Assembly: GCA_030649895.1 (NCBI GenBank)
Contig: JAUSEX010000037.1
Location: forward strand, 3,815-67,814
DNA length: 64,000 bases
From: Candidatus Omnitrophota bacterium
GTDB lineage: Bacteria > Omnitrophota > Gorgyraeia > Gorgyraeales > Gorgyraeaceae
Reading direction: 5' to 3'
Position numbers and translations under genes: made by a program. Position 1 is the first letter of the stretch; each line of letters starts with the position of its first letter. Below are positions 21,001 through 46,426 of this stretch, piece by piece. The notes beneath the pieces were generated by a model, which was not told the DNA's origin, did not search any database, and saw nothing but the letters and a program-made list of their open reading frames with translations.

Positions 21001-24000
21001 GTGTTGACGTAGCAGGGATGGGGAATCTCTCTCACAGTATATATATCCTGCGCCAGCTAGTCGAGACAGCAAAAACGCGAGGGTATCCAGAAGAAGAAGT
21101 GGAGAAAATAGTGAAAAAAGCGATAGAAAATCGTTTGAATCCTGAAAGCAAGAATTTTGATAGGCTGTTCGCAGATGATACTGAAAGACTATTCCAGATA
21201 ATTAGAGAGTCCGGCATACTGGAACATGAAAACGAGGTTCTTATAGATACCTTTAGCTCAGGAGCCACCCCGTTATTTATTAAATACGCTATCGAACGCC
21301 TGAGGCAAGACAAGGTAAGCCCGAAGATATTCATACTAAAAAGTAAGTACGGATTTTTTGACAATCTAAAAAATGCGGGGTTTGACTGGGGCTTCATCAA
21401 TAAAGTTACCCAGGAATATAAAAAGACGCATCCTGTTATGCCAGGCCTTAAATTAGCCCAGCCTGAGGCGGAGTTATTTTCATATCTGCGCGCCATGATA
21501 ACTTATAACGCTATGGTAGAATACAAGAGCCGAGTTATTGCTGCTAGAGGCGGATTTATCCGCGAAGGTGATGCACGCTTTTTTTTTGGAACGAAAAAGA
21601 AAACGCTTACTCCTGCTAGCGGAACAGCTGCCAAAGGTAAGGCCTTGCTTCCTCCTCATGAGCATGGAAGCGTAAATAGAGCTATAGCGCAAGCGCGTTC
21701 AGAAAATCGCGGATATATTATACAAAGAAGCGGCACTAAACTCGCGAGGGGGTGGAAAGATGGAAAATACGCGGATAAAATTAAACTTAGAAAGGCGATT
21801 GAACTTTTAATGGTGGAGCATATTCGTGAATTAGGTAGAATAGTTTTACCAAGCGGTTTGGGCGAAATTATACTAGCTGAAGACCTCGGCGCCCTTAATA
21901 TTATTTTGATCCAGCCTCGCAATAAATCTCCAGGTTTGATGGTAGAAAGCAAGAATGCCTTCCATGTTGCGCACCCAGGGATATCCTATAATTCTATTTA
22001 TATTGATAGACTTACCTTTGACCAGCTTGATATTCGGGAACTGGCCGCCTTAATCCTTTACGAAATAATAGAATTAAAAACTAAGAATTTGTCTTTGGGG
22101 AAAAAACGAAATTGGAGACCAGAACTGGCAGAAGAAATCCATCGATTAGCCGAAGAATACGAACAAATTATCGTTGGGCCAAGTCAAACCGGGACCGGCA
22201 GCCTTCTGGATGATAAGGTCCAGCAAATTTTAGAGGATTCTTTTGTCTTTAGAATTCAAAATTTAATTGATCCTTATATGAGCGAATTAAAGCCGCTTCT
22301 TGATAAATATCATAGAATGGCTACGGAAATTAAAGAGGCTGAAGCAATAATAGCGGAAGAAGCCGAGAGAGTAAAGGCCTTGCTGAACGAATTATCCAGC
22401 CTTTCAAGAGATAGAATTAAATCACTGCATGAAGAATTGAAGAGTCTTATGGAAGCATATTCTGGAGAAAATGCTGCGAAAACAGAATCAGCCAGAAAGA
22501 TAATAGAAAAAAGAGAAATCAATAAAGTTATAGATAAGATCAATGTTTTTTCGAGGGTTCCAGAAAATCAGATTGAGTTAGCTGAAGCCGGAGATGTAGG
22601 AAGTTTAGACGAATTTTTAGAAAGAAGCGATGCCGATGAATATATAAAACGGGCTGAAGATAGCATTATTCATGGCGAGCATGTTGTAGAATTCTTCTTT
22701 GCGGGAGCAGCCACCCGCTTTATAGAAGACCTCAGGGCATCAGGCAGGACAATAGAAAAGAAAGACGAACCACAATACCGTATGTATGGACTGGATATCT
22801 GGGATTTTGCCGGCCCGGCCAGAAAAGATTCTTCAGACTTAGGTTTAGGAATGGCGCAAAGGCAGCTATTTGCGTATAGAACTTTCCTGAAAAACTTGGC
22901 CCTGAAAAAAGGATTACATCCCGATGAGGTTCTGAAGCGCCAACGCCTTATTTTGCATATAAATGAAGATGTCGAAGAGATGGTTTTGAAGGACTTTATG
23001 GATAATGTTTTCTATGGTTTTGATCCAGATAATATTTTCTTTATGGTGCAGGAAACTTTACACGGGTATTCCCTTAAAGACGGTAAAATAGTTTTTGCCG
23101 AAGATAGCCCAAAACTTCCTTTTGGACATGGTTACGCCACAGAGCAATTGAACGTACCAGGTGTCGCTTTTCACCTTAAGGTAAAAAATGGAATAATGCA
23201 CAGAGAATATCTTTCAGAAGCAGTTTTGACAGAACTGGAACTTAAAACCGCCGGTTATTATATCGATACTCATAGAGTTAATGATTTGACTAAATTTTTA
23301 GTTGATGAGGTAGTGGATGTAAGAAAACTCGCCTTTAAAATATTTCTTATTGAACAAGAAAATGACGTCATTATAGAGCTGGTAGAAAACCCTGGAAAAC
23401 AAAAAGGGGGTAATCTTATCAAGGATAAAAGAACCGGCAAATACTTTCTTATAGAGACTTCTAATACAGAAGGCTCAGACCGGTTAAAGGAATTGCTGAC
23501 CAAGGCAAGCGAAGACAGTGCGCCTTATAACGCCTTTAGAATTATGTATAGACGTAGAGGCTTAGAGGAACTGTTAAAGAAGAGATTCCCTTATAACCTG
23601 CGATTTAAAAATGGCTATTTCTACTTGGAAGCAGTTACAGGAGACATAACTCAATTGGAAGAGGCCAACGCAGCTGCCTTTAAAGAAAAAGGCGCGGTTA
23701 TCAAAGACTTCAAACGACTGGGAGATTTAGGAATTGCTATTCCTGTATTGACAAAGAGTGATAAGGACCTTGCTGATGTAGTCAACCAGACAAGACATAA
23801 ACAAAGTTTGGCTGGTAGAAAGTTAAAAGACGTAATATCGCGACTACTTAGGCAAGGCCTTCCTCATGATTTTATAGAAAGAGCTATTTTATCAATGCCG
23901 CTTGAACATACTTCATCGGATACCGTGTCTGTGGATAGGCTTGTGGCTCAGATTGTGGAATGGCGCACTTTGATGGATAATTGTCTCGCAGAAAAAGGAG

Positions 24001-27000
24001 AGATACGAGTAGCTATAAAAAATCCAAAAGATGTTTATTATAAAGATGTGCCCGAAGAAGAAATCCCCTCATCTATTGACTATACGGAACTTACGATCGT
24101 TTCTAGAGATAGGCCGGGATTGGTCAGAGATATAGAGACCGTAATTGCTGAATACGGGGGCAATTTAACACGGCCGGCATTTGGGGCGATGAATGATGAA
24201 GGAATGGCGCGGTTGATTTATGAAATTAACCATGCTGAACGAAAAAATGCTTTTAATAGTAGAGAAATAGAAGAATTACGAAAAGCACTTTTAAAAATAA
24301 AGGTCGGCTTGGCGCCTCTTTCTATTAAACCAGAGTATGGATTCGAGGGTTGGAGAAAGGTCGAAGGGGATGCGGATGCTTATGAAGGAAAATTAGTTAT
24401 TGATGGCAATGTCATGGATCTGAAAGTTGTAAAATCTGCAAGTTCTTTCGAATATTTTCTGGGGTATGAAGGGGGGCCTGCGGGGTATGCTAGGATTTTA
24501 TTTAACAACAAAAAGCTTAAAGTCCATTATTTAGAACTTTCCCCTTCGTTTAGAAAGGCGATTGGCGATATTTCAGCAGCCAAAGTATTAATGAATATTA
24601 TGATCAGAGATTTATTCTTTATCGGAAGCCAGGATTTATCAGGGCTAATAGTCCAGGTAGTCATGAATGAAGATTCATCTACGCCTAAAGTAAATAATCT
24701 AATCGGAGGATTCGGGATAACCGAGTTTAACAGAGAAAAAGTAATGTCTATAATAATGGATGAAAAATCTAAAATTAGTATCGAAGAGACTAAGGCTCCT
24801 CATGAAGGCGTGCCGTATTTCAGGGTAGTATTGGAAGGAAAGCTGCCGCTAAAGATTTTTCTTAAAGCACGTTTAGAATATTCGTACAAAGACAAAAGGA
24901 CTTGGATTATTAGCAGGAAGATTTACGAACAAATGGAATCAGATGCAAGGTATAAACTAGGACAGGCTCCTCTGCAAGTCAAAGAACAGGCCCGGCTTAA
25001 AGGAGAATTAGCAAGAAGGCTCCAAGAAGACGAGGTTTTTGTCGGAGGAGTTGATTTTTATATGGATCCTGACAAAGTAGAGTGGCTTGAAGAGCATACT
25101 GCATCGTTGCCAGAGAATCCTTGGTTAGTAATTGATGACCTTGGTTCTGCTCATGCTCCAAGAGAGCAAAATGCGCCATCTCTTTTAGCCAATCTTTTCA
25201 CCGGAAAATGGAGTAAGTTTAATTGGGCGACAAGGGCTGTTTTTTCACTTGCTATAGTGCCGCATGAGGTTGGACATCTTTTTATGGCAAAAATAACCAA
25301 AACCCCTTTATTAAGAAAACTCTATATAGAAGATTTATCCAGTAAGATGCCTATAGCCGAAAGAGCCTCTCCAATAGTTCATTTAGCAGGATTGTTTGTA
25401 AATGCCTCTGTCGCTATTGCTTCAGCCTTTACTTTGCATTTCTTTGGCCACGCAGTTATAGATTTTACAAATCCTTTAGCTGGAATCCTCTCTTACGTCT
25501 TTCTTGCCAATAGCATTCTTTTTGCCTTAGAAATAATATTAGATGCTACCACTAAGCTTAGAGGAGATGTAACTAACGCAATTTTTGGACGCTCAGGATT
25601 TGCTAGTCAAATTAATGTACAGAGAGCTAAAAATATATTTTTCACATTCAAGGAATATATGAACGAGGCCTTGTATAACCCGGATTGGGGGTATTATGCA
25701 AGCGGCCGCGTAAAAATAGGGACTGTCAGAAAGGGGAGCGATTTTATTACTTACCCTTTGAAGCTATCTCCGCTATTTGGCGGAATGATTGCTGAACAGG
25801 CATTTAAGATGTGGGAGGGGATGGTCAGGGCAGGCACAATTACAGAAAATGAACAGTTTACTATTTTAGAGTTTGGCGGCGGAGACGGAACGCTGGCTTA
25901 TGATATTCTTTCACGCGCAAGCCAGAAGGCCCTGGATAATCCTGACTGGGCAAAGTTTTACAGAGCCCTACTTTATACTATAGGTGACCGCTCGCCTCCC
26001 TTGATTGAAATCCAAAAAAAGAAAAATGCGCGGTTTAATGGTAAATTTAATACGGTTTTAGTTGATGCGCTGAATCCTCTCGAGGGAGGCGTTTTCAAGC
26101 CCTCCTCTATAAAAGGCCTGATTCTTTCCAATGAATTGCTGGACGTTTCCGGCCACCAGAAACTTATCGTTTATCCGGACGGAGATATCAAGGTAACGCT
26201 ATCTATCCCAAAAATATCTTTAGCCTTGCTAGGCAATTTACCTAAAGACAAACAGAATGAGTTAGTTAAAAGAAATGAAGAGTTAATCTCGGAATTTAAG
26301 CTCCCTTTAACCGACGGGATATATCTTTCCAGGGATGATTTCTTGGCCCTGAAGGCTTATCTTAGGGATCTGGGCCCTGAGCAGGAGAATCTGTTTAATC
26401 AGGAAATAAGATTTATAGAAATTTATATTGACCCTATATATGTTCCGGAGGTCCTTAGCTATATTCAGGAGAATAAAGAAAGCATAGATGGATTTGTAGC
26501 TGATAATGAAAAGCCATTCGCTGTTTATATTAATCCTGATGGGGCGGGATACATCCAGGGCGCCGGAGAGATCCTGGATAAAGGCTACATCCTGACCATA
26601 GATTATGGCGGGTTATCGGATTATATTCTTGACCCTCAATATGAGCACCTTCTTATAATAAAAAATGGCTCAAGGGACGCTGATCCCTATAGCCTTCCTG
26701 GCCAACGAGATATCTCCGCTGAACAAAATTTTACTGATCTGGCAGCCGCTGGCCAAAAGATAGGGCTCAATACAGTATTTTACGGTAACCAGGCCCATCT
26801 TGAAGAAGGCGTGACTCCTTTAACGAGCCAATCTCTTTTGGAGGAGCTGGCAAAAAGGTTTCAGGGCCAGGAGCCTGGCTTATCTTCAGAGGAGGCTATG
26901 AAAAAAGCCAGGAGAGAAGTTGATGAATTCAGGCTTAGCGGAATCATTAATGATCCAGGTAGGAGCCCGTATAAGATGCTCATTCAACAGAAACCAGGGA

Positions 27001-32007: not shown

Positions 32008-32040
32008 TGTATAGTAGGATGTCCCCGGATAGGACGTCCC
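32008..32040 (-). repeat. REP-like element copy (reverse orientation) with 5' GTAG, just upstream of the HExxH gene's probable start
   Basis: tgtataGTAGgatgtccccggataggacgtccc. Near-identical to 33891-33922. Confidence 0.6.
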
Positions 32041-35863: not shown

Positions 35864-35886
35864 AGTTAGAATAAGGGCGTTTTATT

Positions 35887-38800: not shown

Positions 38801-38895
38801 GGAAAGGTGAAGAAATAAAACAGATCGCTCTTAAATCGATTGAAAAAAGAGCGATTTCTATGCCTTTTTATTCTAATACCAGAGATCAGTTGTAG
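35887..38895 (+). CDS. secreted/signal-anchored multi-domain protein: transglutaminase-like Cys-protease-like core + C-terminal class I SAM-MTase-fold module
   Basis: N-terminal 30 aa almost identical to the previous gene. SICDSYAARVTQILRDHGIDA...HYFVL...IIDITADQ resembles the transglutaminase-like Cys-His-Asp core. The C-terminus has the MTase-fold motif order (ILDCCASDSS / IIGMDIN / VDIAIVGNVL / LKEGGRLIIG), with a degenerate motif I. Confidence 0.7.
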   Translation: MLTIKITSLIVVLTLFVTSLAYCIELPERSYLRTPLLGNSDKGRVRLADGLGLMPLNSRVIVGMHEGELNLYIEGVVSEQVKQDLRTLLNANPYIITYSIKSIFDADSLEFEPSEITGLKLKKIGEGIYKRVFLIEGIITRDGRIFHNYPFVMKITKGVDFGDVHLTEAHIGETAKAANELAHSDPPLHPRLGGDWFFNFENRKFWVLTEGYVRGVNSKIKSERIVEDAILGNGDPAARDKIFLETEENAFYAYIKAWKIWRGQEPVDTETLSRFIADPNLENIVDKMLVDLDLLSSSANAGYLVKILSEWSDLADRDKGRVISRAALRAIGREEGMKFLAAAKDQIENGISYKYIAKAIGNFLEEQSKAFLAYFYIFNGEFKKFIRVNPVIFRGIVMDLQKNEPLRKEQEEGIEKFSKAMDEIFELRELYLMEEEYPSICDSYAARVTQILRDHGIDASHEVCRWPELQILMRAPSYNPEHYFVLSRIAGYEFIIDITADQFEVKDLYGNPQQLGLVVIPLEVVRNNPDKFWMYNGRLSASFVNVPLEERLDAVEMLSSVLRIYDDAKKRSLSLILWPQTGESVWTRDQARVRVETLLLDMNGEDVNIARRARHELAASRQRAVEPLLDILKETDDWELMEKIYKALLIACDLVSIRKLQDLYFKLEDEWKKNWIRIALEKLMQLDSFIMTYSPKEGNAIEKTTFKNRLEKAEEYILGLIRADPGRIKVILDCCASDSSTTLDIAKKTHGEDEGIKIIGMDINEILYVVSDAGGNVAVFDSLDNLVRLDTKDGYWIRNSEGWVKDGYHLVEDGPDKEAVSLYGRLKETLQAHLRRKIDISKNGVEPDAYSDGQGNRIEAIYLVNPEAIEWAMSHNLEFMQGDFFNLTNTVAQKSVDIAIVGNVLGEYYEYYSQDSTYEALKEIGLTLKEGGRLIIGNNPSRVMTVDFQFLVYERKGDNLVLVDIVGQPHIWKGEEIKQIALKSIEKRAISMPFYSNTRDQL
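35895..36032 (+). repeat. leader module A copy 2
   Basis: see 33991-34128. Confidence 0.8.
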
Positions 38896-38896
38896 A

Positions 38897-38960
38897 GAGT
38901 TGTAGGGGGACGTTCTATTTGGAGTTGTAGGGGGACGTTCTATTTGGGGACACCCTATAC
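38897..38960 (+). repeat. two tandem 25-nt REP-like copies (AGTTGTAGGGGGACGTTCTATTTGG x2) + GGACACCCTATAC, overlapping stop codon of upstream gene; AGTTGTAG occurs 3 times
   Basis: Read directly at 38888-38960. Confidence 0.65.
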
Positions 38961-39125
38961 AAAGACAGGCTTTATGTTGAATATTAAAAAAATATTATTA
39001 ATCAGGGTAATAAGCTTATTACTTTCAATAAGCGTCGCGCTTCCAGACGCTGCCTATTCTCTATCTGAAAGCCTAAGAGTTCCATTAAATACCCCGGAAC
39101 TTAAAGAGCGGCAGGAAGAAGTTCA
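38923..39125 (+). repeat. leader module B copy 1 (REP-like motif + RBS + signal-peptide coding + LR[VA]PLNT.ELKERQEE), ~90% identical to 42680-42885
   Basis: ...tttatgttgaatattaaaaaaatattattaatcagggYaataagcttattRctttcaataagcgtcgcgcttccagRcgctgcctattctct... shared. Confidence 0.8.
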
Positions 39126-42100
39126 ACGATTTCTAACGCAGGACAAGGCAACTTCCACGCTTTTATCTCCTACGGTTTTAGTTACTGGTGGAGCAGGGTA
39201 TATTGGAAATTTTGTTGTCAGGCAGCTTCGCAGCAAAGGTTACAATGTGATTATTTATGACAGGGCTACTCGCCCGGAACTTGCATTGGAAAAGCTTAAA
39301 TATATACAAGGGGACTTGGGTGATCGCAAGCGTTTGGATGAAGTTTTTAAGGCGGAGCATGTTAATGCAGTTATCCATTTGGCTGCTTTAATTCAAGTGC
39401 CGGAATCAGTCAGGCGGCCAGCGGCTTACTATGAAAATAACTTTATTAATACGCTCGCTCTTCTAGATACTATGGCAAAGCATAGGGTAAGAAGTATTGT
39501 GTTTTCATCATCTGCCGCAGTGTATGGCGAGGGCTCTGAAGAGCTGCTGACAGAACAAACCAATGTTAATCCGGCTAATCCTTATGGTGAAACAAAATGG
39601 CTTATGGAAGAAGCTATGCGGGCCTATGAAAAACGTTATGGTATTCATTCAGTGGCGTTACGCTATTTTAATGCAGCCGGGGCAGCAATGGATGGCTCGG
39701 TTGGCGAAGCCCATCAGCCTGAAACGCATATTATTCCGAGTTTATTGGAGAAGGCGGTTAAAAAAAGAGAGAAGCTGCCTATCCGCAGAGGTTATCCTAC
39801 GCCGGACGGTACAGCGATCCGGGACTTTGTCCATGTGGAAGATTTAGCGCGAGCACATACCCTTGCATTAGACTACATAGTTCGCGAACAGCATAGCGAT
39901 ATTTTTAATCTTGGTACCGGGTCTGGGACATCAGTGCGGGAGATAGTAGAAAGCATTGAAAGGCTGACCGGGGAAGATGTCCCAATAGAGCTTTCTGCTC
40001 CGCGATCAGGAGGCGTAGCGCGGCTTGTAGCTAGTTTTACAAAGGCGCAGGCGCGTTTGGGCTGGATGCCTATATTAGGTATTGAGCAGATTCTTGAGTC
40101 TGCATTGAAATGGCATAGCAACAGGCCTATCATGACTCAGCAGCAAGGCGAAAATATTTTTATGGGCAGCCATGGCGAAGCTCAGGCATTTGAGCGCGTA
40201 ATATCACAGCTTAGGTCTAATTTTGTAATTGGTGATTCATTGCGCGAAGAAGTCATGGTTCGTCTTGCAAAAAGGATGCAGGTATTACTTAAAGAAGCGG
40301 ATCAGGCTGACGCAGAAGAGATATTGCGCGTTATATTTGCAAGTAACACGTGGCTGGTTAGCAGAGAAAAGCGCATTGTCAATGACCAGGAGTTAATGGC
40401 GCTGCTTGCAAAAAGCCTGGCTATTTCGCTGCGGCGCGAAGACGCAAAAGAAATTGCAGAATTCCTTAACGCGCTTCTGAACCATTATCCTGAAAATTTA
40501 CTGCCTGAAGCTAAGCGATTAATTCATTCATATTTAGTTGTCTATAATATCGATAGGCCATTGAAGATAGCTACTGTTGTTTCCCGCTATGGAGGCCAGA
40601 TCAGAATATTAAGGCCGGAAAATCATCCTCTTGGGGAGAATAATCTGCGGTTGAAACTAGAGCAGCTGGAAGAGCTTTACGGTATAAATACTAATGTTTA
40701 CTGGGAGTTGATTTTAGTTCAGGATGGGGACGATAGGAAGCCTGAAGATCCACTCAGGCGCCTGCGCACTATTGATATGGATAGGGATATTGTATTGGTT
40801 GAGCATCCTGATTACTTTGCTTCAGGAAGAGTGAGGCTTTATGAGCTGGATCAACAAGAGAAGCTGCGTTTAGGCAGCGTGCGTACCGGGGCTACTACTT
40901 ATGGCGCCCGCCAAGCCATAAGAAATGGCGCTGATTTTGTAGTTATTACAGATGGCGATGTATCAGCCCATATTGGACAGGAAGGACTTTTGCTTGAGCC
41001 TCAATTGAAAGGTGAAAAAATAGTTGCTGTTGGGTCACGCAGCGCTAGCGGTTCAATAGTGCGCGGCCGCAAACTTATCCGTCGTATTATAAGCCCGGGG
41101 TTTAATATTTTTTCCCGCTTGTTTTTGTCTTTGGGGCCTATCCGTGATACTCAATGTGGTTTTAAAGCTTACAGCCGTCAAGTGTTAGAAGATATTTTAC
41201 CTGTAAATAAGGATAATAGATTTGATATCGAATTTGCCTATAATTTTTCTGGCGAAGTAAATCTCCTTTGGAGGGCCAGGCTTTCCGGATATCAATTAAA
41301 AGAAATACCTATTGCCTGGTTTGATACTCCTACAACTACAGTAAAGCGCAGCGATATTATAAATATGGCCAAAGGCGTTTTAAGGCAAAGAGCTTATTTG
41401 GACAAATGGAAAAAAAGAACACCATCTGGCCAGGAGACAGAGACTATTTCTCTTCCAGGCAGCACAAAGGCGTGGGACCTTCAGTATAGAATAATGCCTA
41501 TAGAAGAAAAAATCAAAGTAGCCATGTCTAAATATGATTTAGGCGTTGCTTCTTTTGAAGATATCCGTTACGAAGAACTAAGGGGTGGAGTTCCTAACAG
41601 GCTTCCATTGAGACTGGAAACTCCTTTGGGAAATTTTGCCTTAAAACAGATTGCGCTTACATTGGAAGAGGCAAGATTTTGCGTTTCAGTGCTTCGCAGG
41701 CTTCAAAAAGAAAAGTTGCCTATCCCGGCATTAGTAAAGACTAAAGATTTTCCTGACGAGAAAACAGACAGCTATTTTATAAAAATAGGCACTTATTTTT
41801 ATATCTTGGAAGAATTTAAGGAGGGCCGATATGTTGATCGCTTACAGGCTGAGCCAGCCCATTTTTATAGCATAGGAAAGATAATGGCGGATATCCATCA
41901 TATTCTTGCTGGCTTTACACCGGAGGGGCAGAAAACAGCTGCTCCTGTAATAGATATCTTACGGCATAGGCGCGAGTTTCAGCAGCTAAGGGGAAGATTA
42001 AGAAACAGGGAAACTTTACAATTAAAAGCAGGAGAAATTTTATTTTTATATTTATATGAAGAAATTATGCAGCAGTTCGATATTTTAGAGAATAATCTTT

Positions 42101-42666
42101 CCGAATCAATTTACAATAGTTTGCCCAGAGTTGTTGTCCATGGAGACGCTTCTTTTCCAAATATATTATTTTCTGATACGGGAGAAGTTGTTGCTTTGCT
42201 TGACTGGGAACGGTCCAGGATTCAGCCGCGCGTAGAAGATTTTAAGAATACTATAATGACGGTTGATCCGATACAGGGCCGCACCTATGATTTTGACAGC
42301 TTGGTAGAACTGGTAGCTGCTTATCAGGCACATACTGCTGATAAGCTTACAGAGGCAGAATTGCGGGCTATACCCGAAGTTTTAAGGGCAACGTTTCTCT
42401 GGGAATTCGCTTCTCGTTTTATGTCTAGGATTTCAGAATTGGAACAAAAAGAAGGAATGGACAGGCTTGACAATATGCTTTTAAAGTTTCAGAGTTTTAA
42501 AAAAGATTTCCCTGGTACAAATGAGAGTATTCAAAGATTTATAAAGGAAGTAAACTCAAAAAGCCGAGAAATATTAATAGGCCCTGCTGAATCCCAGGAG
42601 CCTGTCTTTGAGATAAAGAGGGCGCTTGAAGAAGATGGATCGCCTGTTTTGCGTAATCAGATTTAA
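38974..42666 (+). CDS. signal-peptide-bearing tri-domain fusion: NAD-dependent sugar epimerase (GalE-like) + family-2 glycosyltransferase (DPM1-like) + APH/choline-kinase-like phosphotransferase
   Basis: ATG at 38974 (ORF-track TTG 38944 overlaps the repeat element). Signal peptide MLNIKKILLIRVISLLLSISVALPDAAYS. Epimerase: VLVTGGAGYIGNFVV (Rossmann GxxGxxG) ... YGETKW (YxxxK) ... matches GalE. GT2: LVQDGDD ... FVVITDGD ... DTQCGFKAYSRQ. Kinase: VVVHGDASFPNILF ... LLDWERS. Confidence 0.8.
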   Translation: MLNIKKILLIRVISLLLSISVALPDAAYSLSESLRVPLNTPELKERQEEVQRFLTQDKATSTLLSPTVLVTGGAGYIGNFVVRQLRSKGYNVIIYDRATRPELALEKLKYIQGDLGDRKRLDEVFKAEHVNAVIHLAALIQVPESVRRPAAYYENNFINTLALLDTMAKHRVRSIVFSSSAAVYGEGSEELLTEQTNVNPANPYGETKWLMEEAMRAYEKRYGIHSVALRYFNAAGAAMDGSVGEAHQPETHIIPSLLEKAVKKREKLPIRRGYPTPDGTAIRDFVHVEDLARAHTLALDYIVREQHSDIFNLGTGSGTSVREIVESIERLTGEDVPIELSAPRSGGVARLVASFTKAQARLGWMPILGIEQILESALKWHSNRPIMTQQQGENIFMGSHGEAQAFERVISQLRSNFVIGDSLREEVMVRLAKRMQVLLKEADQADAEEILRVIFASNTWLVSREKRIVNDQELMALLAKSLAISLRREDAKEIAEFLNALLNHYPENLLPEAKRLIHSYLVVYNIDRPLKIATVVSRYGGQIRILRPENHPLGENNLRLKLEQLEELYGINTNVYWELILVQDGDDRKPEDPLRRLRTIDMDRDIVLVEHPDYFASGRVRLYELDQQEKLRLGSVRTGATTYGARQAIRNGADFVVITDGDVSAHIGQEGLLLEPQLKGEKIVAVGSRSASGSIVRGRKLIRRIISPGFNIFSRLFLSLGPIRDTQCGFKAYSRQVLEDILPVNKDNRFDIEFAYNFSGEVNLLWRARLSGYQLKEIPIAWFDTPTTTVKRSDIINMAKGVLRQRAYLDKWKKRTPSGQETETISLPGSTKAWDLQYRIMPIEEKIKVAMSKYDLGVASFEDIRYEELRGGVPNRLPLRLETPLGNFALKQIALTLEEARFCVSVLRRLQKEKLPIPALVKTKDFPDEKTDSYFIKIGTYFYILEEFKEGRYVDRLQAEPAHFYSIGKIMADIHHILAGFTPEGQKTAAPVIDILRHRREFQQLRGRLRNRETLQLKAGEILFLYLYEEIMQQFDILENNLSESIYNSLPRVVVHGDASFPNILFSDTGEVVALLDWERSRIQPRVEDFKNTIMTVDPIQGRTYDFDSLVELVAAYQAHTADKLTEAELRAIPEVLRATFLWEFASRFMSRISELEQKEGMDRLDNMLLKFQSFKKDFPGTNESIQRFIKEVNSKSREILIGPAESQEPVFEIKRALEEDGSPVLRNQI

Positions 42667-42679
42667 AAAAAGCAAAGGA

Positions 42680-42711
42680 CTAGGGACGTTCTATTCGGGG
42701 ACACCCCATAC
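42680..42711 (+). repeat. REP-like element copy upstream of CDS 42725
   Basis: ctagggacgttctattcggggacaccccatac. Confidence 0.6.
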
Positions 42712-42885
42712 AAAGAGAGGTTTTATGTTGAATATTAAAAAAATATTATTAATCAGGGCAATAAGCTTATTGCTTTCAATAAGCGTCGCGCTTCCAGGCG
42801 CTGCCTATTCTCTGCCTGAAAACCGCTCTAATGCCTTAAGAGCTCCATTAAATACGCTGGAACTTAAGGAGCGGCAGGAAGAAGC
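42680..42885 (+). repeat. leader module B copy 2
   Basis: see 38923-39125. Confidence 0.8.
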
Positions 42886-45800
42886 TTTAAAGGCGATAAT
42901 ATCTCCTATAGGTGCGTATTTGGAAGCCGATGAAATGACAGTTGGTGATGAAGCGGAATTAGGCAAAACACCTGCTGATCAAAGAAATGATGCCAATATT
43001 GCCAAAGGCGAGGGAATATTTGCTCCGGACGAACACGCTGAAGCAAATACTATAATAAGACAGGCAAGAAGAGAGAGGCGGGGATATATCATCAGAAGGA
43101 ATAAAACTACGATTTCCAGGGGCTGGAAAGAAGGTAAAGATGAGGATAAGGCTAAACTTAATAAGGCTATTGATTTATTGCTGGATGGGCATATGGGTAA
43201 GTTTAAGAGCATAGCTTTGCCAAAGGGACTGGGCGAAATTAACTTATCCGACAGGCTCCATATCCCAAATATTATATTGATTCAACCGAGAAATAGATCT
43301 CCCGGCCTAATTGTAAAAGATAGAAATGCCTTCCAGGTTGCCCACGCAGGAGTAGCCTATAATTCTATTTATATTGATAAGATTACTTTTGATCATCTCA
43401 ATATTGAAGAATTGGCCGCTTTAGTTCTTCATGAGATAATAGAGATAAAAGCAAAGAGCTTGACCTTGGAGAAAGGCGTAACTTGGACTGAACTGGCAAT
43501 GGATGTTCATCAACTGGCTGAGAGATACGAGATAGATGTTGCAGGGCCCAGCCTAAGCGGCGTTGGCAGTAGGTTGGATGATAAAGTAAGAGAGGTTTTG
43601 CAAAGTGCTTTTGCATTCAGGATTCAAAGCTTGATCGAGCCTTACGTTAGCCAGCTACAGCCTCTTATTGATAGATATCATCAGGCAAGTGATAAAAAGG
43701 ATAGAGAAGAAATAGAAAAAGAAATTAATAAAATAGTAAACAAAATCAATGTCTTCTCCGTGGTTCCAGAAGATCAGATTGTTCTGGCCGAGGACGAAGA
43801 TATAGAAGCTTTAGATAAGTTCTTAAAGAGAAAGCGCGCCAAAGAGCATATAAAGTTTGCAGAAGATACAATTATTCAAGGCAGGTATATCCCGGAATTT
43901 TTCTTTGCTGGCGCAGCTACTCGCCTCATCGAAGACCTTAAGGGGTTGGGCATAAAGATAGAGGATAGAGATGAATACAAGTATCGTATGTATTCTTTGG
44001 ATCCCTGGGATTTTGCCGGGCCGGCCAGAGCGGCTTCCTTAAATTTAAATTTAGGAATGGGCCAGAGGCAGCTTTTTGCCTATAGAGCCTTCTTAGAGAA
44101 ATTGGCTAAAGAAAGAGGCTTAAACCCGCGTGATGTTATAAAGAGGCAGCGTCTTATCCTGCACGTAAGCGCAGAGATAGCGGATGAAGTTCAGGAAGAT
44201 TTCTTAGCTAGCAACCTTTTGGGTTTTGACCCTCAATATGGTTTTGATCTTCAGAACGTCTTCTTTATTATGCAGGAGAATTTACCCGGTTATCTTCTTA
44301 AAGATGGCCAGGTAAATTTAGCTCAAGATAGCAAAAAACTTCCATTTGGGCATGGCTATGCGACAATGCAGGTAAACATACCTTCCGTAGCTTTTCGCCT
44401 TATAGCAAGGGACAACAAGGTATATCGAGAATATCTATCAGAGGATATATTGACTGAGCTGGAAGGCGAGGGCGCAGACTGCTTTGTTGGCACACATAGG
44501 GTTAATGACTTAACTAAATTTCTGGTCGATGGGGTAGTAGATATACAAAAGCTAGCTTTTAGCATATATCTTATTAAGAAAGGTAATGATCTTGTTGTAG
44601 AGCTGGTTGAGAATCCCATGGACCAAGAAGGCAAGAGACAGAAAGGAGGAAATCTTATTAAAGATAGAAGGACCAATAGAAAGTTTTTGATCGAAACTTC
44701 TAATACAAGCGGTTCAGTTAAATTGGATGAGATGTTAACTAAAGCCAGTCAAGAAGGCGCCCCCTATAATGCCTTTCGTCTTACATATGGATTGAGGCCT
44801 TTAAAGAAATTATTAAGGAAAGATTTATCTTACAATTTGAGGTTTAAGAATGGTTATTTCTATTTGGAGGCGGTTACTGGAGATTTAACTCAACTGGAAG
44901 ATGTAAAGTCAGCGGCATTCAAGAGGAGAGGAGATGTTATCAAAGATTTTAAAAAGCTATCTAATTTGGATATTGCCACACCTATCCTTACAGAAAGTGA
45001 TAAAGCTTTAATAGGGTCGTTTGATCAATTAAAACATAGGCAAGCCTTAAGCAATGGGAAGATAACAGAATTGATATATAGATTACAAAGAGAAGGTATT
45101 CCCGCAGATTTCATAAATACTGTTATCTTATCTATGCCTCTTGAGCATACGTCAGCTGATACTGTTCCTGCGGATAGGCTCAGGGATCAAGTTATGGAGC
45201 TATACGGTTTAATGAAGCGGTATCTTGAAAACCCAGGGCAGATTCAATATTCTGTCAAGAATCCGAAAGATACTTACTATAAGGGAGTCCCTGAAGAAAA
45301 AATTCCTCAGCCGATTAATTATTCCGAAATTATGGTGGTTAGCAAAGACAGGGCCGGACTGTTAAGAGATATACAGGCTGAAATTGCTAAACTCAGAGGC
45401 AGCGGCGGTTCGCTTTATTTTTCTATCTATAAAGACACAATTTTATTGGTTTGTGAAGTGCAGCATGTTCAGAGAAAGGATGCTTTCAGCGGCCAAGAAA
45501 TAAAGATGCTGGAGTTAGCGCTCTCGCAGATAAAGGTGGAAGAGAAAATGCCTCTCATTAGGCCTGAGTATCGCTTTGACGATTGGGGTGAGGACGAAAG
45601 GCATGATAATGTTTACGAGGGCGAGGTAATTGTCGATAGCAGGGTTTTAAATTTACGGGTGGAGAAGTACGAAGATGGCTTTAAGTATTTTCTTACTTAT
45701 AAAGGCGAAGGCGTTGGATATGGTAGGATTTTATTTGGGACAGGCAAGTTTGAAATCCATTATTTAGAGACCCAAGACTGGTTTAGAAAAAAGGTCGCCG

Positions 45801-46426
45801 ATATTTCTATAGCTAAACTATTAATGAATATCATGATTAAAGATTTATTGCTGATAGGAAATCAGAATCTATCGGGTTTAACTGTTCGCATGGTTATGGG
45901 AATGCCTGGTACGATTCCAAGGGTAAATAATCTTATCGGGGATTTTGGGATAACCGATTTTGATAAAGATGCTGTAAGAGATATGATAATGGACAGAGAA
46001 TCTAAAATCGCTATCAGCGAAACAGAACCCCCGAAGCAAGGCGTACCATATTTTGAGATAAGATTAGACAATAGATTTTCGCTGAAGATTTTTCTCAAGG
46101 CGCCTAAGGAATATTCATATAAAGATAAGAGAACATGGATCATTAACAGGCAAATTTACGAGCAAATGAAGTCAGAATATACAGTTCGGATCGCCCCGGA
46201 TAGATGGCTGCAGGATAAGCTTAAGGAAGAATTAGTAAGGAGGCTTGAAGAGGACGAGATTTTTGTGGGAGGGGTTGATTATTATGTTGATCCTGATAAG
46301 GTTGAGGGGCTAGAAAGTTATGCTATACTATTGCCGATCAACCCTTGGTCAATAAATGCAAACTATGATACTCAGAAAAAACCAGGCCGATTTTTAGGCC
46401 GGAAGAAGATAGATTCCGCGTTATAA
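42725..46426 (+). CDS. secreted multi-domain protein, free-standing paralogue of giant-ORF module 21680-25140 (UDPGP-like nucleotidyltransferase + ACT-like + unknown regions)
   Basis: ATG at 42725 preferred over ORF-track start 42626, which overlaps the upstream gene and the repeat element. Leader MLNIKKILLIRAISLLLSISVALPGAAYS is near-identical to the previous gene. EFFFAGAATRL ... NVFFIMQENLPG ... LPFGHGYAT ... EIMVVSKDRAGLLRDIQAEIA (ACT-like). Confidence 0.8.
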   Translation: MLNIKKILLIRAISLLLSISVALPGAAYSLPENRSNALRAPLNTLELKERQEEALKAIISPIGAYLEADEMTVGDEAELGKTPADQRNDANIAKGEGIFAPDEHAEANTIIRQARRERRGYIIRRNKTTISRGWKEGKDEDKAKLNKAIDLLLDGHMGKFKSIALPKGLGEINLSDRLHIPNIILIQPRNRSPGLIVKDRNAFQVAHAGVAYNSIYIDKITFDHLNIEELAALVLHEIIEIKAKSLTLEKGVTWTELAMDVHQLAERYEIDVAGPSLSGVGSRLDDKVREVLQSAFAFRIQSLIEPYVSQLQPLIDRYHQASDKKDREEIEKEINKIVNKINVFSVVPEDQIVLAEDEDIEALDKFLKRKRAKEHIKFAEDTIIQGRYIPEFFFAGAATRLIEDLKGLGIKIEDRDEYKYRMYSLDPWDFAGPARAASLNLNLGMGQRQLFAYRAFLEKLAKERGLNPRDVIKRQRLILHVSAEIADEVQEDFLASNLLGFDPQYGFDLQNVFFIMQENLPGYLLKDGQVNLAQDSKKLPFGHGYATMQVNIPSVAFRLIARDNKVYREYLSEDILTELEGEGADCFVGTHRVNDLTKFLVDGVVDIQKLAFSIYLIKKGNDLVVELVENPMDQEGKRQKGGNLIKDRRTNRKFLIETSNTSGSVKLDEMLTKASQEGAPYNAFRLTYGLRPLKKLLRKDLSYNLRFKNGYFYLEAVTGDLTQLEDVKSAAFKRRGDVIKDFKKLSNLDIATPILTESDKALIGSFDQLKHRQALSNGKITELIYRLQREGIPADFINTVILSMPLEHTSADTVPADRLRDQVMELYGLMKRYLENPGQIQYSVKNPKDTYYKGVPEEKIPQPINYSEIMVVSKDRAGLLRDIQAEIAKLRGSGGSLYFSIYKDTILLVCEVQHVQRKDAFSGQEIKMLELALSQIKVEEKMPLIRPEYRFDDWGEDERHDNVYEGEVIVDSRVLNLRVEKYEDGFKYFLTYKGEGVGYGRILFGTGKFEIHYLETQDWFRKKVADISIAKLLMNIMIKDLLLIGNQNLSGLTVRMVMGMPGTIPRVNNLIGDFGITDFDKDAVRDMIMDRESKIAISETEPPKQGVPYFEIRLDNRFSLKIFLKAPKEYSYKDKRTWIINRQIYEQMKSEYTVRIAPDRWLQDKLKEELVRRLEEDEIFVGGVDYYVDPDKVEGLESYAILLPINPWSINANYDTQKKPGRFLGRKKIDSAL

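What the first reader, a model, noticed from the sequence alone, without database searches (positions are those of the whole stretch)
21680..46426. A ~3.5-kb internal module of the giant gene also exists as a free-standing, signal-peptide-bearing gene 17 kb downstream
Giant-ORF region 21680-25140 and CDS 42725-46426 are colinear paralogues over ~1,100 aa. By eye, well over half of aligned residues are identical in long blocks such as NIILIQPRN(K/R)SPGL, NSIYID(R/K)(L/I)TFD, EFFFAGAATR(F/L)IEDL, LPFGHGYAT, NAFR, NGYFYLEAVTGD, GVPYF and DKRTWII. The free-standing copy has its own Sec-type signal peptide. The internal copy has none and is immediately followed by the HEVGH TM cluster. This records module exchange between the giant gene and its satellite genes, either fusion of a neighbouring gene into the giant ORF or excision from it. 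Such exchange could be a mechanism by which giant genes grow. The clan GH-A modules at 10761-11630 in the giant ORF and in the free-standing genes at 57450 and 60712 show the same relationship at lower identity.
Basis: seen in the sequence. Interest (0 to 1): 0.8.

Follow-up and report, generated by a model that had tools for sequence, protein, structure and literature searches.

The report
Enzyme module duplicated inside giant gene
A 1,150-residue sugar-activating enzyme module sits inside a giant membrane-protein gene of an Omnitrophota bacterium. An old, still-functional copy of it lies 17 kb downstream as a separate gene with an export leader, so giant genes and their neighbours draw on the same building blocks, but which copy came first is unresolved.

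Summary
Giant-ORF aa 7193-8376 (nt ~21609-25160) and the free gene 42725-46426 align in one colinear BLASTP segment: 52.8% identity over 1,199 columns, E=0.

The duplication is old. Synonymous sites are saturated (pS 0.72) and dN is 0.33. Both copies keep every family-invariant residue.

The module has four parts:
- domain A;
- a coiled coil plus core B, whose AlphaFold model (pLDDT 87) matches only UDP-sugar pyrophosphorylases (Foldseek probability 1.0);
- an ACT-like domain C;
- an orphan domain D.

A, B and C occur separately in about 230 other proteins. The full composite is seen only here and in one related MAG.

The satellite's "own" signal peptide belongs to a cassette of REP-like element, ribosome-binding site and leader. 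This cassette is 93% identical in DNA to the neighbouring gene's, against 65% for the module.

Five consecutive downstream genes carry this leader with an invariant LRxP motif. A RAYT-like transposase sits among them.

In two related genomes the giant gene stops about 450 aa before the point where the module starts here.

Fusion versus fission is not resolved, and there is no sign of ongoing exchange. I file it as a new variant of ordinary domain shuffling, of moderate interest.

The parts
33..31868 (+). Giant ORF, at least 10,611 aa, open at the 5' window edge. It is of the Archaeovorin type, with about 18 hydrophobic helices.
   Evidence: Pfam finds only GH2_C-like and Methyltransf_28.
18156..18722 (+). 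TM cluster (giant aa ~6042-6230) that opens the TM-free loop holding the module. It is 57% identical to a giant-gene fragment of another Omnitrophota MAG (L004).
21609..25232 (+). Internal copy of the ABCD module (giant aa 7193-8400).
21615..22337 (+). Internal copy, domain A (unknown fold). Elsewhere it occurs alone in proteins of 760-4,700 aa.
22338..22511 (+). Internal copy, coiled-coil linker. About 55 aa of it are absent from the satellite but present in P0001/P0002.
22515..23804 (+). Internal copy, core B: a divergent nucleotidyltransferase resembling UDP-sugar pyrophosphorylases.
23820..24380 (+). Internal copy, domain C: helical segment plus an ACT-like domain.
   Evidence: Sub-threshold ACT hits with E 1e-4 to 4e-3; coordinates.
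24393..25232 (+). Internal copy, domain D, an orphan with no homologue outside this window.
25263..25541 (+). HEVGH motif (25263-25277) inside a hydrophobic helix, plus two more TM helices directly after the module. Possibly an intramembrane zinc-peptidase-like motif.
   Evidence: Sub-threshold Peptidase_M50 and Zn_peptidase_2 hits at E about 0.015.
42725..46426 (+). Free-standing satellite gene, 1,233 aa: leader head followed by the ABCD module.
42683..42884 (+). Cassette of REP-like element, Shine-Dalgarno (AGAGAGG), ATG and leader (to ...ELKERQEE). It is 92-93% identical in DNA to 38932-39121.
38932..39121 (+). Partner copy of the REP/SD/leader cassette, at the head of the GalE-kinase satellite.
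42725..42964 (+). Satellite head (aa 1-80). It is homologous to the heads of P0003 and P0005, which are satellites of other Omnitrophota giants, and carries a 59-aa deletion. It holds the invariant LRxP motif.
42986..43699 (+). Satellite, domain A.
43721..45043 (+). Satellite, core B (UDPGP fold). A 5-aa insertion lies just before the invariant QKGGN.
45059..45613 (+). Satellite, domain C (ACT-like beta-alpha-beta-beta-alpha-beta in a low-confidence model).
45626..46423 (+). Satellite, domain D (orphan).
38974..42666 (+). Neighbouring leader-bearing satellite: UDP-glucose 4-epimerase (GalE), a possible GT2, and an APH/CotS-type kinase.
33965..35863 (+). Leader-bearing satellite with no known domain. 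Its leader is 91% identical in DNA to that of 35887.
35887..38895 (+). Leader-bearing satellite with a weak methyltransferase hit.
32049..33179 (+). First satellite after the giant's stop. It has a divergent leader with LRVPM. The start codon is uncertain.
33193..33922 (+). RAYT-like Y1 transposase gene (33306-33896) flanked by inverted REP-like copies (33193-33217 and 33898-33922, 92% complementary).
32013..42710 (.). Span holding all 8 good copies of the REP-like element (core AATAGGACGTCCC). They lie at 32013, 32028, 33193, 33910, 34133, 38907, 38932 and 42683.
   Evidence: 9 matches in the whole window against 0.83 expected, and 0 of 100 shuffles reach 9.
10764..11633 (+). GH-A-like module inside the giant ORF, paralogous at 27% to the free genes at 57450 and 60712.
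57450..59798 (+). Free signal-peptide-bearing glycoside hydrolase (GH2_C/GH72-like).
60712..61935 (+). Free glycoside hydrolase (GH72/GH_cc-like) with an N-terminal hydrophobic segment.

Best explanation
**What it is (shown).** A composite ~1,150-aa module was duplicated long ago within an Omnitrophota lineage. Both copies have been kept by selection.
- One copy fills most of a TM-free loop in the 3' third of an Archaeovorin-type giant ORF. It ends about 10 aa before a HEVGH-containing membrane helix.
- The other copy is a separate gene. Its first ~80 aa are a Sec-type leader head shared with four neighbouring 'satellite' genes and with satellites downstream of giant genes in other Omnitrophota.

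**How it probably works (inferred).**
- Core B is a very divergent UDP-sugar-pyrophosphorylase-type nucleotidyltransferase (NTP + sugar-1-phosphate <-> NDP-sugar + PPi).
- The ACT-like domain C is a small-molecule sensor.
- A, the coiled coil and D are accessory or oligomerisation parts.
- Together with the adjacent leader-bearing GalE/kinase gene, the satellite would complete a route from sugar to sugar-1-P to UDP-sugar to epimer (and perhaps to a glycosyl transfer step). The locus' glycoside hydrolases and ABC sugar importer would feed this route.
- The genome therefore runs the same enzyme in two formats: tethered in the giant membrane protein, and as a leader-targeted protein.

**How the pair arose.** One duplication event spanned the whole ABCD unit. 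Whether a satellite-type gene was welded into the giant's variable 3' end, or a copy left a large ORF and received a REP-linked leader cassette, is not resolved.
For: **Paralogy.** One colinear HSP, 52.8% identity over 1,199 columns, E=0.

**Age and selection.**
- pS 0.72 (saturated), dN 0.33, and no window of high DNA identity.
- Both copies keep all residues that are invariant across 26 family members.
- In the satellite of a 96.5%-identical strain, 48 of 81 differences fall at third codon positions.

**Composite nature.** HMMER against 1.84 billion representative proteins gave 235 hits. My own domain table shows A alone, B alone or A+C in all of them. The full composite occurs only in the window and in P0001/P0002/P0007. 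Domain D has no hit in those representatives, and neither pattern-seeded DNA scan of JGI metagenomes, which included D, found a relative.

**Function of B.**
- AF2 model with pLDDT 86.9 and pTM 0.84.
- The 50 Foldseek PDB hits listed (of 79 at E<=0.001) are all UDP-GlcNAc, UDP-sugar or UDP-glucose pyrophosphorylases: probability 1.00, E down to 2e-13, 440-520 aligned columns.
- The two best profile-versus-PDB hits (not significant, E 0.016 and 0.059) are UDP-GlcNAc pyrophosphorylases, and they align the FyGF...P.GHG motif.
- Family members are fused to phosphoglucomutase/phosphomannomutase (P0028) and to adenylate kinase (P0017).
- A free 545-aa homologue sits next to a mannose-6-P isomerase cupin.
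- P0072 combines A and C with a canonical Pfam UDPGP domain.
- The neighbouring gene is a GalE equivalog at 364 bits, with an APH/CotS-type kinase.

**Leader head.**
- Invariant L, R and P of an LRxP motif in 7 of 7 aligned heads.
- The cassette is 92-93% identical in DNA over 142+48 nt, or 87% over one gapped 202-nt BLASTN alignment, and its left boundary is the REP-like element.
- The head is homologous to those of P0003 and P0005. These lie directly downstream of giant genes in L007 and L006.
Against: **Function is inferred.**
- No Pfam or NCBIfam model reaches threshold on either copy.
- Sequence identity to solved pyrophosphorylases is only 10-16%.
- The glycine-rich loop is degenerate (AGAATR instead of GGxGTR).
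- The C+D model is poor (pLDDT 53), so 'ACT-like' rests on sub-threshold hits in the giant copy only.

**Topology conflict.**
- A nucleotide-sugar enzyme needs NTPs, yet the satellite carries an export-type leader.
- Positive charges on both flanks of the giant's loop hint at a cytoplasmic location for the internal copy.
- If both readings are right, the two copies would work on opposite sides of the membrane.

**Database caveat.** The window's own giant protein was not returned by either protein search. Embedded copies in other very long ORFs could therefore have been missed.
Confidence: 0.6

Rival explanations
1. Fusion, the giant grows. A leader-bearing satellite-type gene, or a duplicate of one, was joined to the variable 3' end of the giant ORF. 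It lost its leader and start, so the internal copy is the derived one.
For: - In two related genomes the giant ORF ends about 220-240 aa after the region homologous to giant aa 6380-6734. That is about 450 aa before the module's position here. Those giants are directly followed by leader-bearing satellites (L006, L007).
- The L006 locus looks related to this one: its sugar-binding protein is 73% identical to ORF 54317.
- The window's giant has about 3,870 extra 3' residues that include ABCD.
- The satellite shares its head, and more distantly an A domain (27%), with P0003. So 'leader ... A' is an inherited satellite architecture.
- Small free B enzymes without leaders are common outside giants.
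Against: - No leader or REP remnant lies upstream of the internal copy.
- The 440 aa between the shared region and the module, and the ~2,200 aa after it, have no satellite counterpart.
- The relatives could equally have lost a long 3' part. They carry a JAMM-like tail that is absent here.
- B's closest relatives, P0001 and P0006, are embedded in larger ORFs.
Confidence: 0.4
2. Fission or copy-out. The module was copied out of a large ORF and became an independent gene by receiving a ready-made cassette of REP-like element, ribosome-binding site and leader from a neighbouring satellite.
For: - The leader cassette is 92-93% identical in DNA to the neighbouring gene's, against ~65% for the module. 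It starts exactly at a REP-like element.
- A RAYT-like transposase and 8 REP-like copies are confined to the satellite array.
- In a 96.5%-identical strain, a REP doublet abuts the satellite at nt 44287, inside core B.
- The nearest relatives, P0001 (at least 583 aa of unrelated in-frame upstream sequence) and P0006 (tandem B), are embedded.
- NJ places the giant copy outside (satellite, P0001/P0002), though with only 72% bootstrap.
Against: - Cassette identity could reflect gene conversion among neighbours rather than recent acquisition.
- Homology of the head to P0003/P0005 extends beyond the cassette (the SPIxAYLEADE segment). That suggests an older head.
- The REP-like elements fold weakly (z -0.5 to -2.0), so they could be shared operators instead.
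- The L005 junction comes from a single unverified Logan contig.
Confidence: 0.35
3. A live cassette-exchange system, like the orphan toxin modules downstream of cdiA or rhs genes. The satellite would be a reservoir that recombines into the giant gene to swap modules.
For: There is a superficial resemblance: a very long gene is followed by an array of related, repeat-flanked genes.
Against: - There is no high-identity shoulder to support homologous recombination. The best DNA identity over 100 codons is 0.71.
- The satellite is a complete gene with its own start and leader.
- No other satellite matches the giant.
- No immunity-like partner gene is apparent.
Confidence: 0.03
4. An artefact: an assembly chimera or collapsed repeat creates a false internal copy, or the similarity is confined to short motifs.
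For: None found.
Against: - The two copies differ at about 35% of nucleotides, so they cannot be an assembler duplication.
- The giant frame stays open for 31.8 kb with uniform composition.
- The match is one 1,199-column HSP.
- An independent assembly (Logan SRR22388083) reproduces the 3' part of the satellite locus (window 44287-47416) at 96.5%.
Confidence: 0.01

Closest known systems
UDP-sugar pyrophosphorylases of the UDPGP family (Pfam PF01704), such as human AGX1/UAP1, Leishmania USP and UGP
   Same: - The predicted fold of core B matches them over 440-520 columns (Foldseek probability 1.00, TM 0.41-0.59).
- Motif resemblance: AG(A/G)xTR(L/M) to GGxGTR, P.GHG(Y/D), and a basic KGG motif.
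- Family members are fused or adjacent to phosphohexomutase, a mannose-6-P isomerase cupin and GalE.
   Different: - Sequence identity is 10-16%, and neither copy gets a Pfam hit.
- B is preceded by a long coiled coil and embedded in an A-CC-B-C-D composite.
- It is found mostly in signal-peptide-bearing or TM-rich proteins of 900 to more than 10,000 aa, often in tandem.
- Its activity and substrate are untested.
Archaeovorin-type giant proteins of Omnitrophota (West-Roberts et al. 2023, bioRxiv 10.1101/2023.11.21.568195; Nielsen & Lui 2026, bioRxiv 10.64898/2026.06.07.730766)
   Same: - An ORF of more than 10,000 aa with many TM helices and with GH and methyltransferase domains.
- Downstream solute-binding protein, ABC permeases and GH2-like hydrolases. 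This matches the published locus description.
   Different: - In term searches plus the sections I read, I found no mention in either paper of paralogy between internal modules and flanking genes, of a UDPGP-like module, or of a shared leader or REP cassette on the flanking genes. West-Roberts et al. state that the origin of giant genes is open.
- No SecA_DEAD domain is seen in the part of the ORF inside the window.
Composite ('Rosetta stone') proteins arising by gene fusion or fission (my own knowledge: Marcotte et al. 1999; Enright et al. 1999)
   Same: A free-standing gene is homologous end to end with an internal segment of a much longer protein. The implication is that the free protein and the rest of the composite work together.
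   Different: Both forms coexist in one genome, 17 kb apart in the same transcriptional direction. The free form carries an export leader that the fused form lacks.
Orphan toxin cassettes downstream of cdiA, rhs or maf genes (my own knowledge)
   Same: A very long gene is followed by an array of genes related to part of it, with repeats between them.
   Different: Those orphans lack starts, share near-identical recombination shoulders and come with immunity genes. None of these features is present here.
REP elements with REP-associated tyrosine transposases (RAYTs)
   Same: - A Y1 transposase whose best NCBIfam match is REP_Tyr_transpos (E 1.5e-17).
- It is flanked by inverted copies of a short repeat that recurs in nearby intergenic regions.
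   Different: - The score is below the NCBIfam cut-off (63.8 against 80 bits).
- The repeats form only weak hairpins.
- All copies lie within 11 kb, and two are physically joined to a ribosome-binding site and a signal-peptide coding segment.

Membership tests
UDPGP-family nucleotide-sugar pyrophosphorylase | Overall three-domain UDPGP fold (central Rossmann-like nucleotidyltransferase core with N- and C-terminal extensions) | tested here: met
   AF2 model with pLDDT 86.9. The 50 Foldseek PDB hits listed are all UDPGP enzymes, probability 1.00, E down to 2e-13.
UDPGP-family nucleotide-sugar pyrophosphorylase | Match to Pfam PF01704 above the gathering score | tested here: not met
   No Pfam family at E<=0.01 on the satellite, and no UDPGP hit on the giant segment. 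A relative that carries A and C (P0072) does have PF01704, but in a different part of the protein.
UDPGP-family nucleotide-sugar pyrophosphorylase | Glycine-rich nucleotide-binding loop (GGxGTR/S) and the P.G(H/N)G(D/G) sugar-phosphate loop | tested here: inconclusive
   The family consensus is F.FAGAATRL, and L003 has AGAGTRMG. GHG is more than 90% conserved, and it aligns with the P.GHG/P.GNG of UAPs in a non-significant HMM match. No residue-level structural alignment was available.
UDPGP-family nucleotide-sugar pyrophosphorylase | Catalysis of NTP + sugar-1-P <-> NDP-sugar + PPi | not testable with these tools
   Needs an enzyme assay.
ACT domain | Beta-alpha-beta-beta-alpha-beta fold and a match to ACT-clan Pfam models | tested here: inconclusive
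   Giant copy: ACT_AHAS_ss 1.2e-4, ACT_4 1.3e-3 and ACT 4.3e-3, all below the cut-off. The satellite copy has no hit. The AF2 model shows the topology at satellite aa 866-934, but with pLDDT of only 57-83.
Archaeovorin-type giant-gene locus (Omnitrophota) | Very long ORF with many TM helices in an Omnitrophota genome | tested here: met
   At least 10,611 aa and about 18 hydrophobic helices. ORF 38944 is 100% identical to an NCBI Omnitrophota MAG protein.
Archaeovorin-type giant-gene locus (Omnitrophota) | Glycosyl hydrolase, methyltransferase or glycosyltransferase domain content, with downstream solute-binding protein, ABC permeases and GH genes | tested here: met
   GH2_C-like and Methyltransf_28 in the giant. 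SBP_bac_1/8, a pair of ORFs that look like ABC permeases from their hydrophobic N-termini (not scanned against any family library), and GH2_C/GH72 downstream.
Archaeovorin-type giant-gene locus (Omnitrophota) | Divergent SecA DEAD-helicase domain and an N-terminal C39 or S8 peptidase | tested here: inconclusive
   Neither is found in the first 10,000 of the 10,611 aa inside the window; the last 611 aa were not scanned. The 5' part of the ORF lies outside the window.
Gene fusion/fission composite (Rosetta-stone pair) | A free gene homologous over its full functional length to an internal segment of a longer protein | tested here: met
   Satellite aa 82-1233 aligns to giant aa 7193-8400 as a single colinear match.
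Gene fusion/fission composite (Rosetta-stone pair) | Polarity established by outgroups | tested here: inconclusive
   Identities are close to a three-way tie and NJ bootstrap is 72%. Context in relatives points both ways.
Orphan-cassette exchange system (cdiA/rhs type) | Near-identical recombination shoulder, no own start, paired immunity gene | tested here: not met
   At most 71% DNA identity in any 100-codon window. The satellite has its own SD, ATG and leader. There is no small partner gene.
REP/RAYT | Y1 transposase of the RAYT type flanked by inverted REPs, with further REP copies in intergenic DNA | tested here: inconclusive
   The best NCBIfam hit is REP_Tyr_transpos, but it is below the cut-off. 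Flanking inverted copies are 92% complementary. There are 9 matches in the window, 8 of them within the satellite array, against 0.83 expected by chance. Hairpins are weak.
Sec-type signal peptide | Positive n-region, 10-15-residue h-region, small residues at -3 and -1 | tested here: inconclusive
   MLNIKKILLIR / AISLLLSISVAL / PGAAYS|L fits by inspection. No signal-peptide predictor was available, and cleavage is untested.

The most novel reading that the evidence does not exclude
Archaeovorin-type giant genes and their downstream 'satellites' would be two states of one cassette system.
- Enzyme modules would move between a free, leader-targeted format and a giant-tethered format.
- The free format would be created or maintained by a portable cassette of REP-like element, ribosome-binding site and LRxP leader, mobilised with the help of a RAYT-like transposase.
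- Giant ORFs would then be, in effect, welded arrays of exported effector enzymes. These would include nucleotide-sugar enzymes that act outside the producer's cytoplasm, for example in or on prey cells.
Probability: 0.15. Interest if true: 0.8.

Novelty: new variant of a known kind. Interest (0 to 1): 0.5.

Why it matters
How bacterial genes of 30-250 kb arise is an open question. West-Roberts et al. (2023) say explicitly that the incorporation of new domains into giant genes is unexplored.

This locus gives a concrete, datable case. A 1,150-aa unit with clean boundaries, from a linker to a membrane helix, is kept both inside a giant ORF and as a neighbouring gene. Related genomes have giant genes that stop just before that unit.

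The finding also does three practical things:
- It annotates an uncharacterised, widespread domain (235 representative proteins) as a UDP-sugar-pyrophosphorylase-like enzyme.
- It flags a lineage-specific export leader, joined to a REP-like repeat, on five consecutive satellites.
- It sharpens a paradox already noted for these proteins: nucleotide-dependent enzymes that appear to be exported.

With the 176 complete Omnitrophota genomes now reported (Nielsen & Lui 2026; their Zenodo DOI was still pending), fusion versus fission becomes directly testable.

Tried and rejected
- **Pfam and NCBIfam** on the satellite and on the giant's loop gave nothing above threshold.
- **Sequence search of the PDB** with the 4-sequence profile gave no hit.
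- **AF2 of C+D** with a 2-sequence alignment gave pLDDT 53.
- **The afdb50 fold library** was unavailable.
- **Two pattern-seeded DNA scans of JGI metagenomes** for C+D and for the C-terminal 168 aa of D found no relatives.
- **A leader-profile search** of the 5.8-billion-protein database returned only three short proteins and gave no wider picture.
- **Other satellite-to-giant paralogies.** phmmer of all 13 neighbouring ORFs against the giant found only the two pairs already known.
- **Leader or REP remnants inside the giant.** None found.
- **'Two ancient paralogue types in both genomes'.** I considered this from the 5-aa insertion shared by the satellite and P0001. I dropped it as unproven. 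P0001's divergent patch is not otherwise satellite-like (60% against 57% identity). P0001 and P0002 could also be strain variants rather than paralogues.
- **Positional orthology of the giant's B with the B cores of L004, P0125 and P0104.** All of these lie downstream of the same conserved TM cluster. This was not supported, because they fall in a distant clade of the NJ tree.
- **The promoter scan** was uninformative, with 40 sites found against 40.8 expected.

Full report
**1. Where we are**

The window comes from a Candidatus Omnitrophota MAG. ORF 38944-42666 is 100% identical to an NCBI protein annotated 'MAG: UDP-glucose 4-epimerase GalE [Candidatus Omnitrophota bacterium]' on a 111-kb contig.

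The + strand carries one ORF from nt 33 to 31868. It is 10,611 aa long and still open at the window's 5' edge. A Kyte-Doolittle scan finds about 18 strongly hydrophobic helices in clusters. Pfam recognises only a GH2_C-like TIM barrel and a Methyltransf_28 domain in its first 10,000 aa.

Downstream, in order:
- five same-strand genes;
- cstA;
- a minus-strand FIST / histidine-kinase / GGDEF response-regulator set;
- a sugar-binding protein, two ORFs that look like ABC permeases from their sequence, and two glycoside hydrolases.

This is the published layout of 'Archaeovorin'-type giant-gene loci.

**2.

BLASTP gives one colinear segment. Satellite aa 82-1220 aligns to giant aa 7193-8376 at 52.8% identity over 1,199 columns, with E=0. 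A profile extends the match to giant aa 8400, which is nt 21609-25232.

The satellite's last residues (…FLGRKKIDSAL) align with the giant's juxtamembrane stretch (…FTGKWSKFNWAT). That stretch lies about 10 aa before the helix carrying HEVGH at aa 8411. The duplicated unit therefore runs from a linker to the membrane, which is a clean structural boundary.

The GH-A statement is also correct, at 27% identity (E 2e-26 and 1e-18). No other neighbouring gene has a detectable counterpart inside the giant.

**3. Age and selection**

| Measure | Value |
|---|---|
| Aligned codons (Nei-Gojobori) | 1,160 |
| pS | 0.72 (saturated) |
| pN | 0.27 |
| dN | 0.33 |
| DNA identity in any 100-codon window | 0.54-0.71 |
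| BLASTN blocks | only 65-69% identity |

The duplication is therefore old, and there has been no recent gene conversion. Both copies have evolved under purifying selection, and both retain every residue that is invariant across 26 family members.

A Logan contig from run SRR22388083 (L005) is 96.5% identical to window 44287-47416. Of its 81 coding differences, 48 lie at third codon positions.

**4. The module is itself a composite**

I searched a 4-sequence profile against 1.84 billion representative proteins and found 235 hits. Re-scoring them locally gave this pattern:

| Part | Profile positions | Where it occurs elsewhere |
|---|---|---|
| A | 1-245 | Alone, inside proteins of 760-4,700 aa |
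| Coiled coil + core B | 250-735 | Free proteins of 430-640 aa; single or tandem in proteins of 900-7,700 aa |
| C | 741-925 | Only together with A, in two proteins (P0069, P0072) |
| D | 930-1195 | Nowhere outside this window |

Two pattern-seeded DNA-level scans of JGI metagenomes, for C+D and for the C-terminal 168 aa of D, also found nothing.

The A-CC-B-C(-D) arrangement is seen only in the window's two copies, in P0001/P0002 and in P0007.
- P0001 and P0002 are two whole-contig ORFs of another Omnitrophota MAG, GCA_043815385.1.
- P0007 is the L005 strain's copy of the satellite.

One caveat applies. Neither protein database returned the window's own giant, so very long ORFs may be under-represented.

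**5. What core B is**

With a 26-sequence alignment, AlphaFold2 gave a confident model: pLDDT 86.9 and pTM 0.84. Foldseek against the PDB listed 50 hits, and all were UDP-GlcNAc, UDP-sugar or UDP-glucose pyrophosphorylases. Probability was 1.00, E-values reached 2e-13, 440-520 columns aligned, TM-scores were 0.41-0.59 and identity was 10-16%.

The family profile's two best, non-significant PDB sequence hits are also UDP-GlcNAc pyrophosphorylases. They align FyGF…P.GHG with the enzymes' yFGL…P.G(H/N)G loop.

Independent context agrees:
- family members are fused to phosphoglucomutase/phosphomannomutase (P0028) and to adenylate kinase (P0017);
- a free 545-aa homologue in a PVC bacterium lies next to a mannose-6-P isomerase cupin;
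- P0072 joins A and C to a canonical Pfam UDPGP domain;
- the satellite's upstream neighbour is a GalE equivalog (364 bits) fused to an APH/CotS-type kinase.

I therefore read B as a divergent NDP-sugar pyrophosphorylase. It is a relative at the level of fold. It is not a member by the Pfam criterion, which was tested and not met.

Domain C is tentatively ACT-like. The giant copy has sub-threshold ACT hits, and a low-confidence model shows beta-alpha-beta-beta-alpha-beta topology. The folds of A and D remain unknown.

**6. The satellite's head is a shared cassette**

All five genes after the giant begin with a hydrophobic leader followed by an invariant L-R-x-P motif. So do P0003 and P0005 from other Omnitrophota.

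Between ORF 38944 and the satellite, DNA identity is 92-93% over 142+48 nt. The shared stretch starts 42 nt upstream of the ATG, at a REP-like element. It runs through the Shine-Dalgarno sequence and stops after codon ~53. ORFs 33965 and 35887 share a second cassette at 91%.

Beyond the cassette, satellite aa 57-80 (AIISPIGAYLEADEMTVG…) still aligns with P0003/P0005, after a 59-aa deletion.

The REP-like core AATAGGACGTCCC has 9 matches (up to 2 mismatches) in the 64-kb window, against 0.83 expected by chance. Eight of them lie between 32013 and 42695.

Two inverted copies flank ORF 33306. The best NCBIfam match of this ORF is 'REP-associated tyrosine transposase', with E 1.5e-17 but below the cut-off. 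The elements fold only weakly as single strands, so a shared operator is an alternative reading.

In the L005 strain, a doublet of the same element abuts the satellite at nt 44287, inside B. This may be a rearrangement breakpoint, but the contig is unverified.

**7. Relatives and polarity**

P0005 and P0003 lie immediately downstream of giant ORFs.
- In L006 (GCA_042572045.1) the order is: an 8,163-aa ORF, a 2,462-aa ORF, P0005, a 107-aa ORF, then a sugar-binding protein 73% identical to ORF 54317.
- In L007 the order is: a giant fragment, P0003, then another gene that begins with a signal-peptide-like segment.

In both, the giant's last conserved stretch corresponds to window-giant aa 6380-6734 (43% and 37% identity). 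The ORF then ends 220-240 aa later with a JAMM-like tail that has no counterpart in the window. The window's giant instead continues for about 3,870 aa, and the ABCD unit starts about 450 aa past that point. This favours accretion at the 3' end, though a loss in the relatives is equally possible.

Evidence pointing the other way:
- P0001 has at least 583 aa of unrelated in-frame sequence upstream of its module, and P0006 is a tandem-B protein. The nearest relatives are therefore embedded.
- The leader cassette looks young compared with the module.

The tree of B does not decide the matter.
- The four close copies are monophyletic (100% bootstrap).
- Within them the identities are 0.633 for satellite to giant, 0.647 and 0.678 for satellite to P0001/P0002, and 0.615 and 0.650 for giant to P0001/P0002.
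- Bootstrap for (satellite, P0001/P0002) is 72%.
- There is no rate difference towards outgroups.

Other giant fragments share the conserved TM cluster upstream: L004 at 57% identity, and also P0125 and P0104. They too carry a B core a few hundred residues downstream. However, those cores fall in a distant clade. The segment after that TM cluster thus appears to be a variable cargo slot.

**8. Mechanistic reading and its weak point**

*Shown:* there are two conserved copies of a UDPGP-fold module, one tethered and one free with an export-type leader.

*Inferred:* both copies make or break NDP-sugars. With the neighbouring GalE/kinase gene, the hydrolases and the ABC importer, the locus would process sugars.

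The weak point is topology. The leader predicts export. Many large B-family proteins also start with signal-like segments (43 of 88 with a Met start), whereas most of the small free ones do not. The giant's loop, however, has positively charged flanks on both sides, which hints at a cytoplasmic location. West-Roberts et al. already noted implausible extracellular predictions for metabolic domains in these proteins.

Two possibilities remain. The leader may not export the protein, or these enzymes may act outside the cytoplasm, perhaps in prey. I cannot decide between them.

The HEVGH helix after the module gives sub-threshold M50 and Zn-peptidase hits. The satellite shows that the module can work on its own. 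Both points fit the published idea of processing into smaller pieces, but neither proves it.

**9. Verdict**

The two regions are a genuine fused/free paralogue pair that bears on how giant genes are built, but the pair is old, its direction is unresolved, and there is no sign of continuing exchange.

In kind this is domain shuffling by duplication with fusion or fission, which is well known. The unusual setting is a giant gene, a REP-linked leader cassette and an unannotated UDPGP-like family. I rate it a new variant of a known kind, with interest 0.5.

Noticed in passing
window 32049-46426 (ORFs at 32049?, 33965, 35887, 38974, 42725); also P0003 and P0005: Five consecutive genes after the giant's stop share an N-terminal leader followed by an invariant L-R-x-P motif 8-12 residues after the predicted cleavage site. 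The same head occurs on proteins directly downstream of giant genes in two other Omnitrophota assemblies. It looks like a lineage-specific sorting signal rather than a generic signal peptide.
   Followed up: partly
window 32013-42710; RAYT-like gene 33306-33896: A REP-like element (core AATAGGACGTCCC) has 8 good copies, all within the satellite array, against 0.83 matches expected by chance in the whole window. Two inverted copies flank a Y1 transposase whose best match is 'REP-associated tyrosine transposase'. Hairpin potential is weak, so a shared operator is an alternative.
   Followed up: partly
window 38974-42666: A bona fide GalE (364 bits), a possible GT2 (sub-threshold) and an APH/CotS-type kinase are fused in one 1,230-aa protein behind an export-type leader. 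These are NAD- and ATP-dependent enzymes that are predicted to be exported.
   Followed up: partly
L005 1-146 and 147-3275 (Logan SRR22388083), matching window 44287-47416: A 96.5%-identical strain has a doublet of the REP-like element abutting the satellite in the middle of core B (window nt 44287). It also has a 1-nt deletion at window nt 45404 that splits the ORF. This is either a real truncated allele or an assembly or sequencing artefact.
   Followed up: partly
L001 and L002 (GCA_043815385.1); P0001 and P0002: The two contigs are 92.6% identical in DNA, but a sharply bounded ~200-nt patch is only 60-71% identical. The patch lies around a 5-aa insertion before QKGGN that P0001 shares with the window's satellite. 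Both contigs end at the same base. They may be mosaic paralogues or strain variants.
   Followed up: partly
window 25263-25541 (giant aa 8411-8503): HEVGH lies inside a hydrophobic helix and gives sub-threshold Peptidase_M50 and Zn_peptidase_2 hits (E about 0.015). This may be an intramembrane metalloprotease-like element directly after the module.
   Followed up: partly
L006 2481-9869 and L007 1-2310 (C-terminal ~220 aa of each ORF): The giant ORFs of two related genomes end in a domain with a JAMM-like H-x-H…S-x-x-D signature (YHNHSF…SGQD). It has no counterpart anywhere in the window.
   Followed up: no
L006 1-2456 and 2481-9869: An 8,163-aa ORF and a 2,462-aa ORF are separated by only 25 nt and are colinear with the window's single giant ORF. 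This may be one giant gene split by a stop codon or a sequencing error.
   Followed up: no
P0009, P0014, P0016, P0032, P0034, P0045, P0111 (B-family proteins): Many large B-family proteins share a conserved motif just after their signal peptide ((L/N)LP(A/T/Q)PGTMV). Several also end with a GGIDLN…PLLG segment, which suggests a second, different sorting or anchoring system.
   Followed up: no
L004 1-3953 (Omnitrophota isolate SO_2016_LW1_34): This giant-gene fragment has the same TM cluster as window-giant aa 5949-6255 (57% identity). It is followed by different cargo: a NadD-like HxGH nucleotidyltransferase motif seen by eye, a distant B core, TM helices and a GGDEF domain. The segment after this TM cluster looks like a variable slot.
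   Followed up: partly
window 46427-47505: A 1.08-kb gap with no ORF of at least 150 aa follows the satellite. It contains a terminator-like hairpin at 46530-46545. Shorter ORFs and RNA genes were not checked.
   Followed up: no
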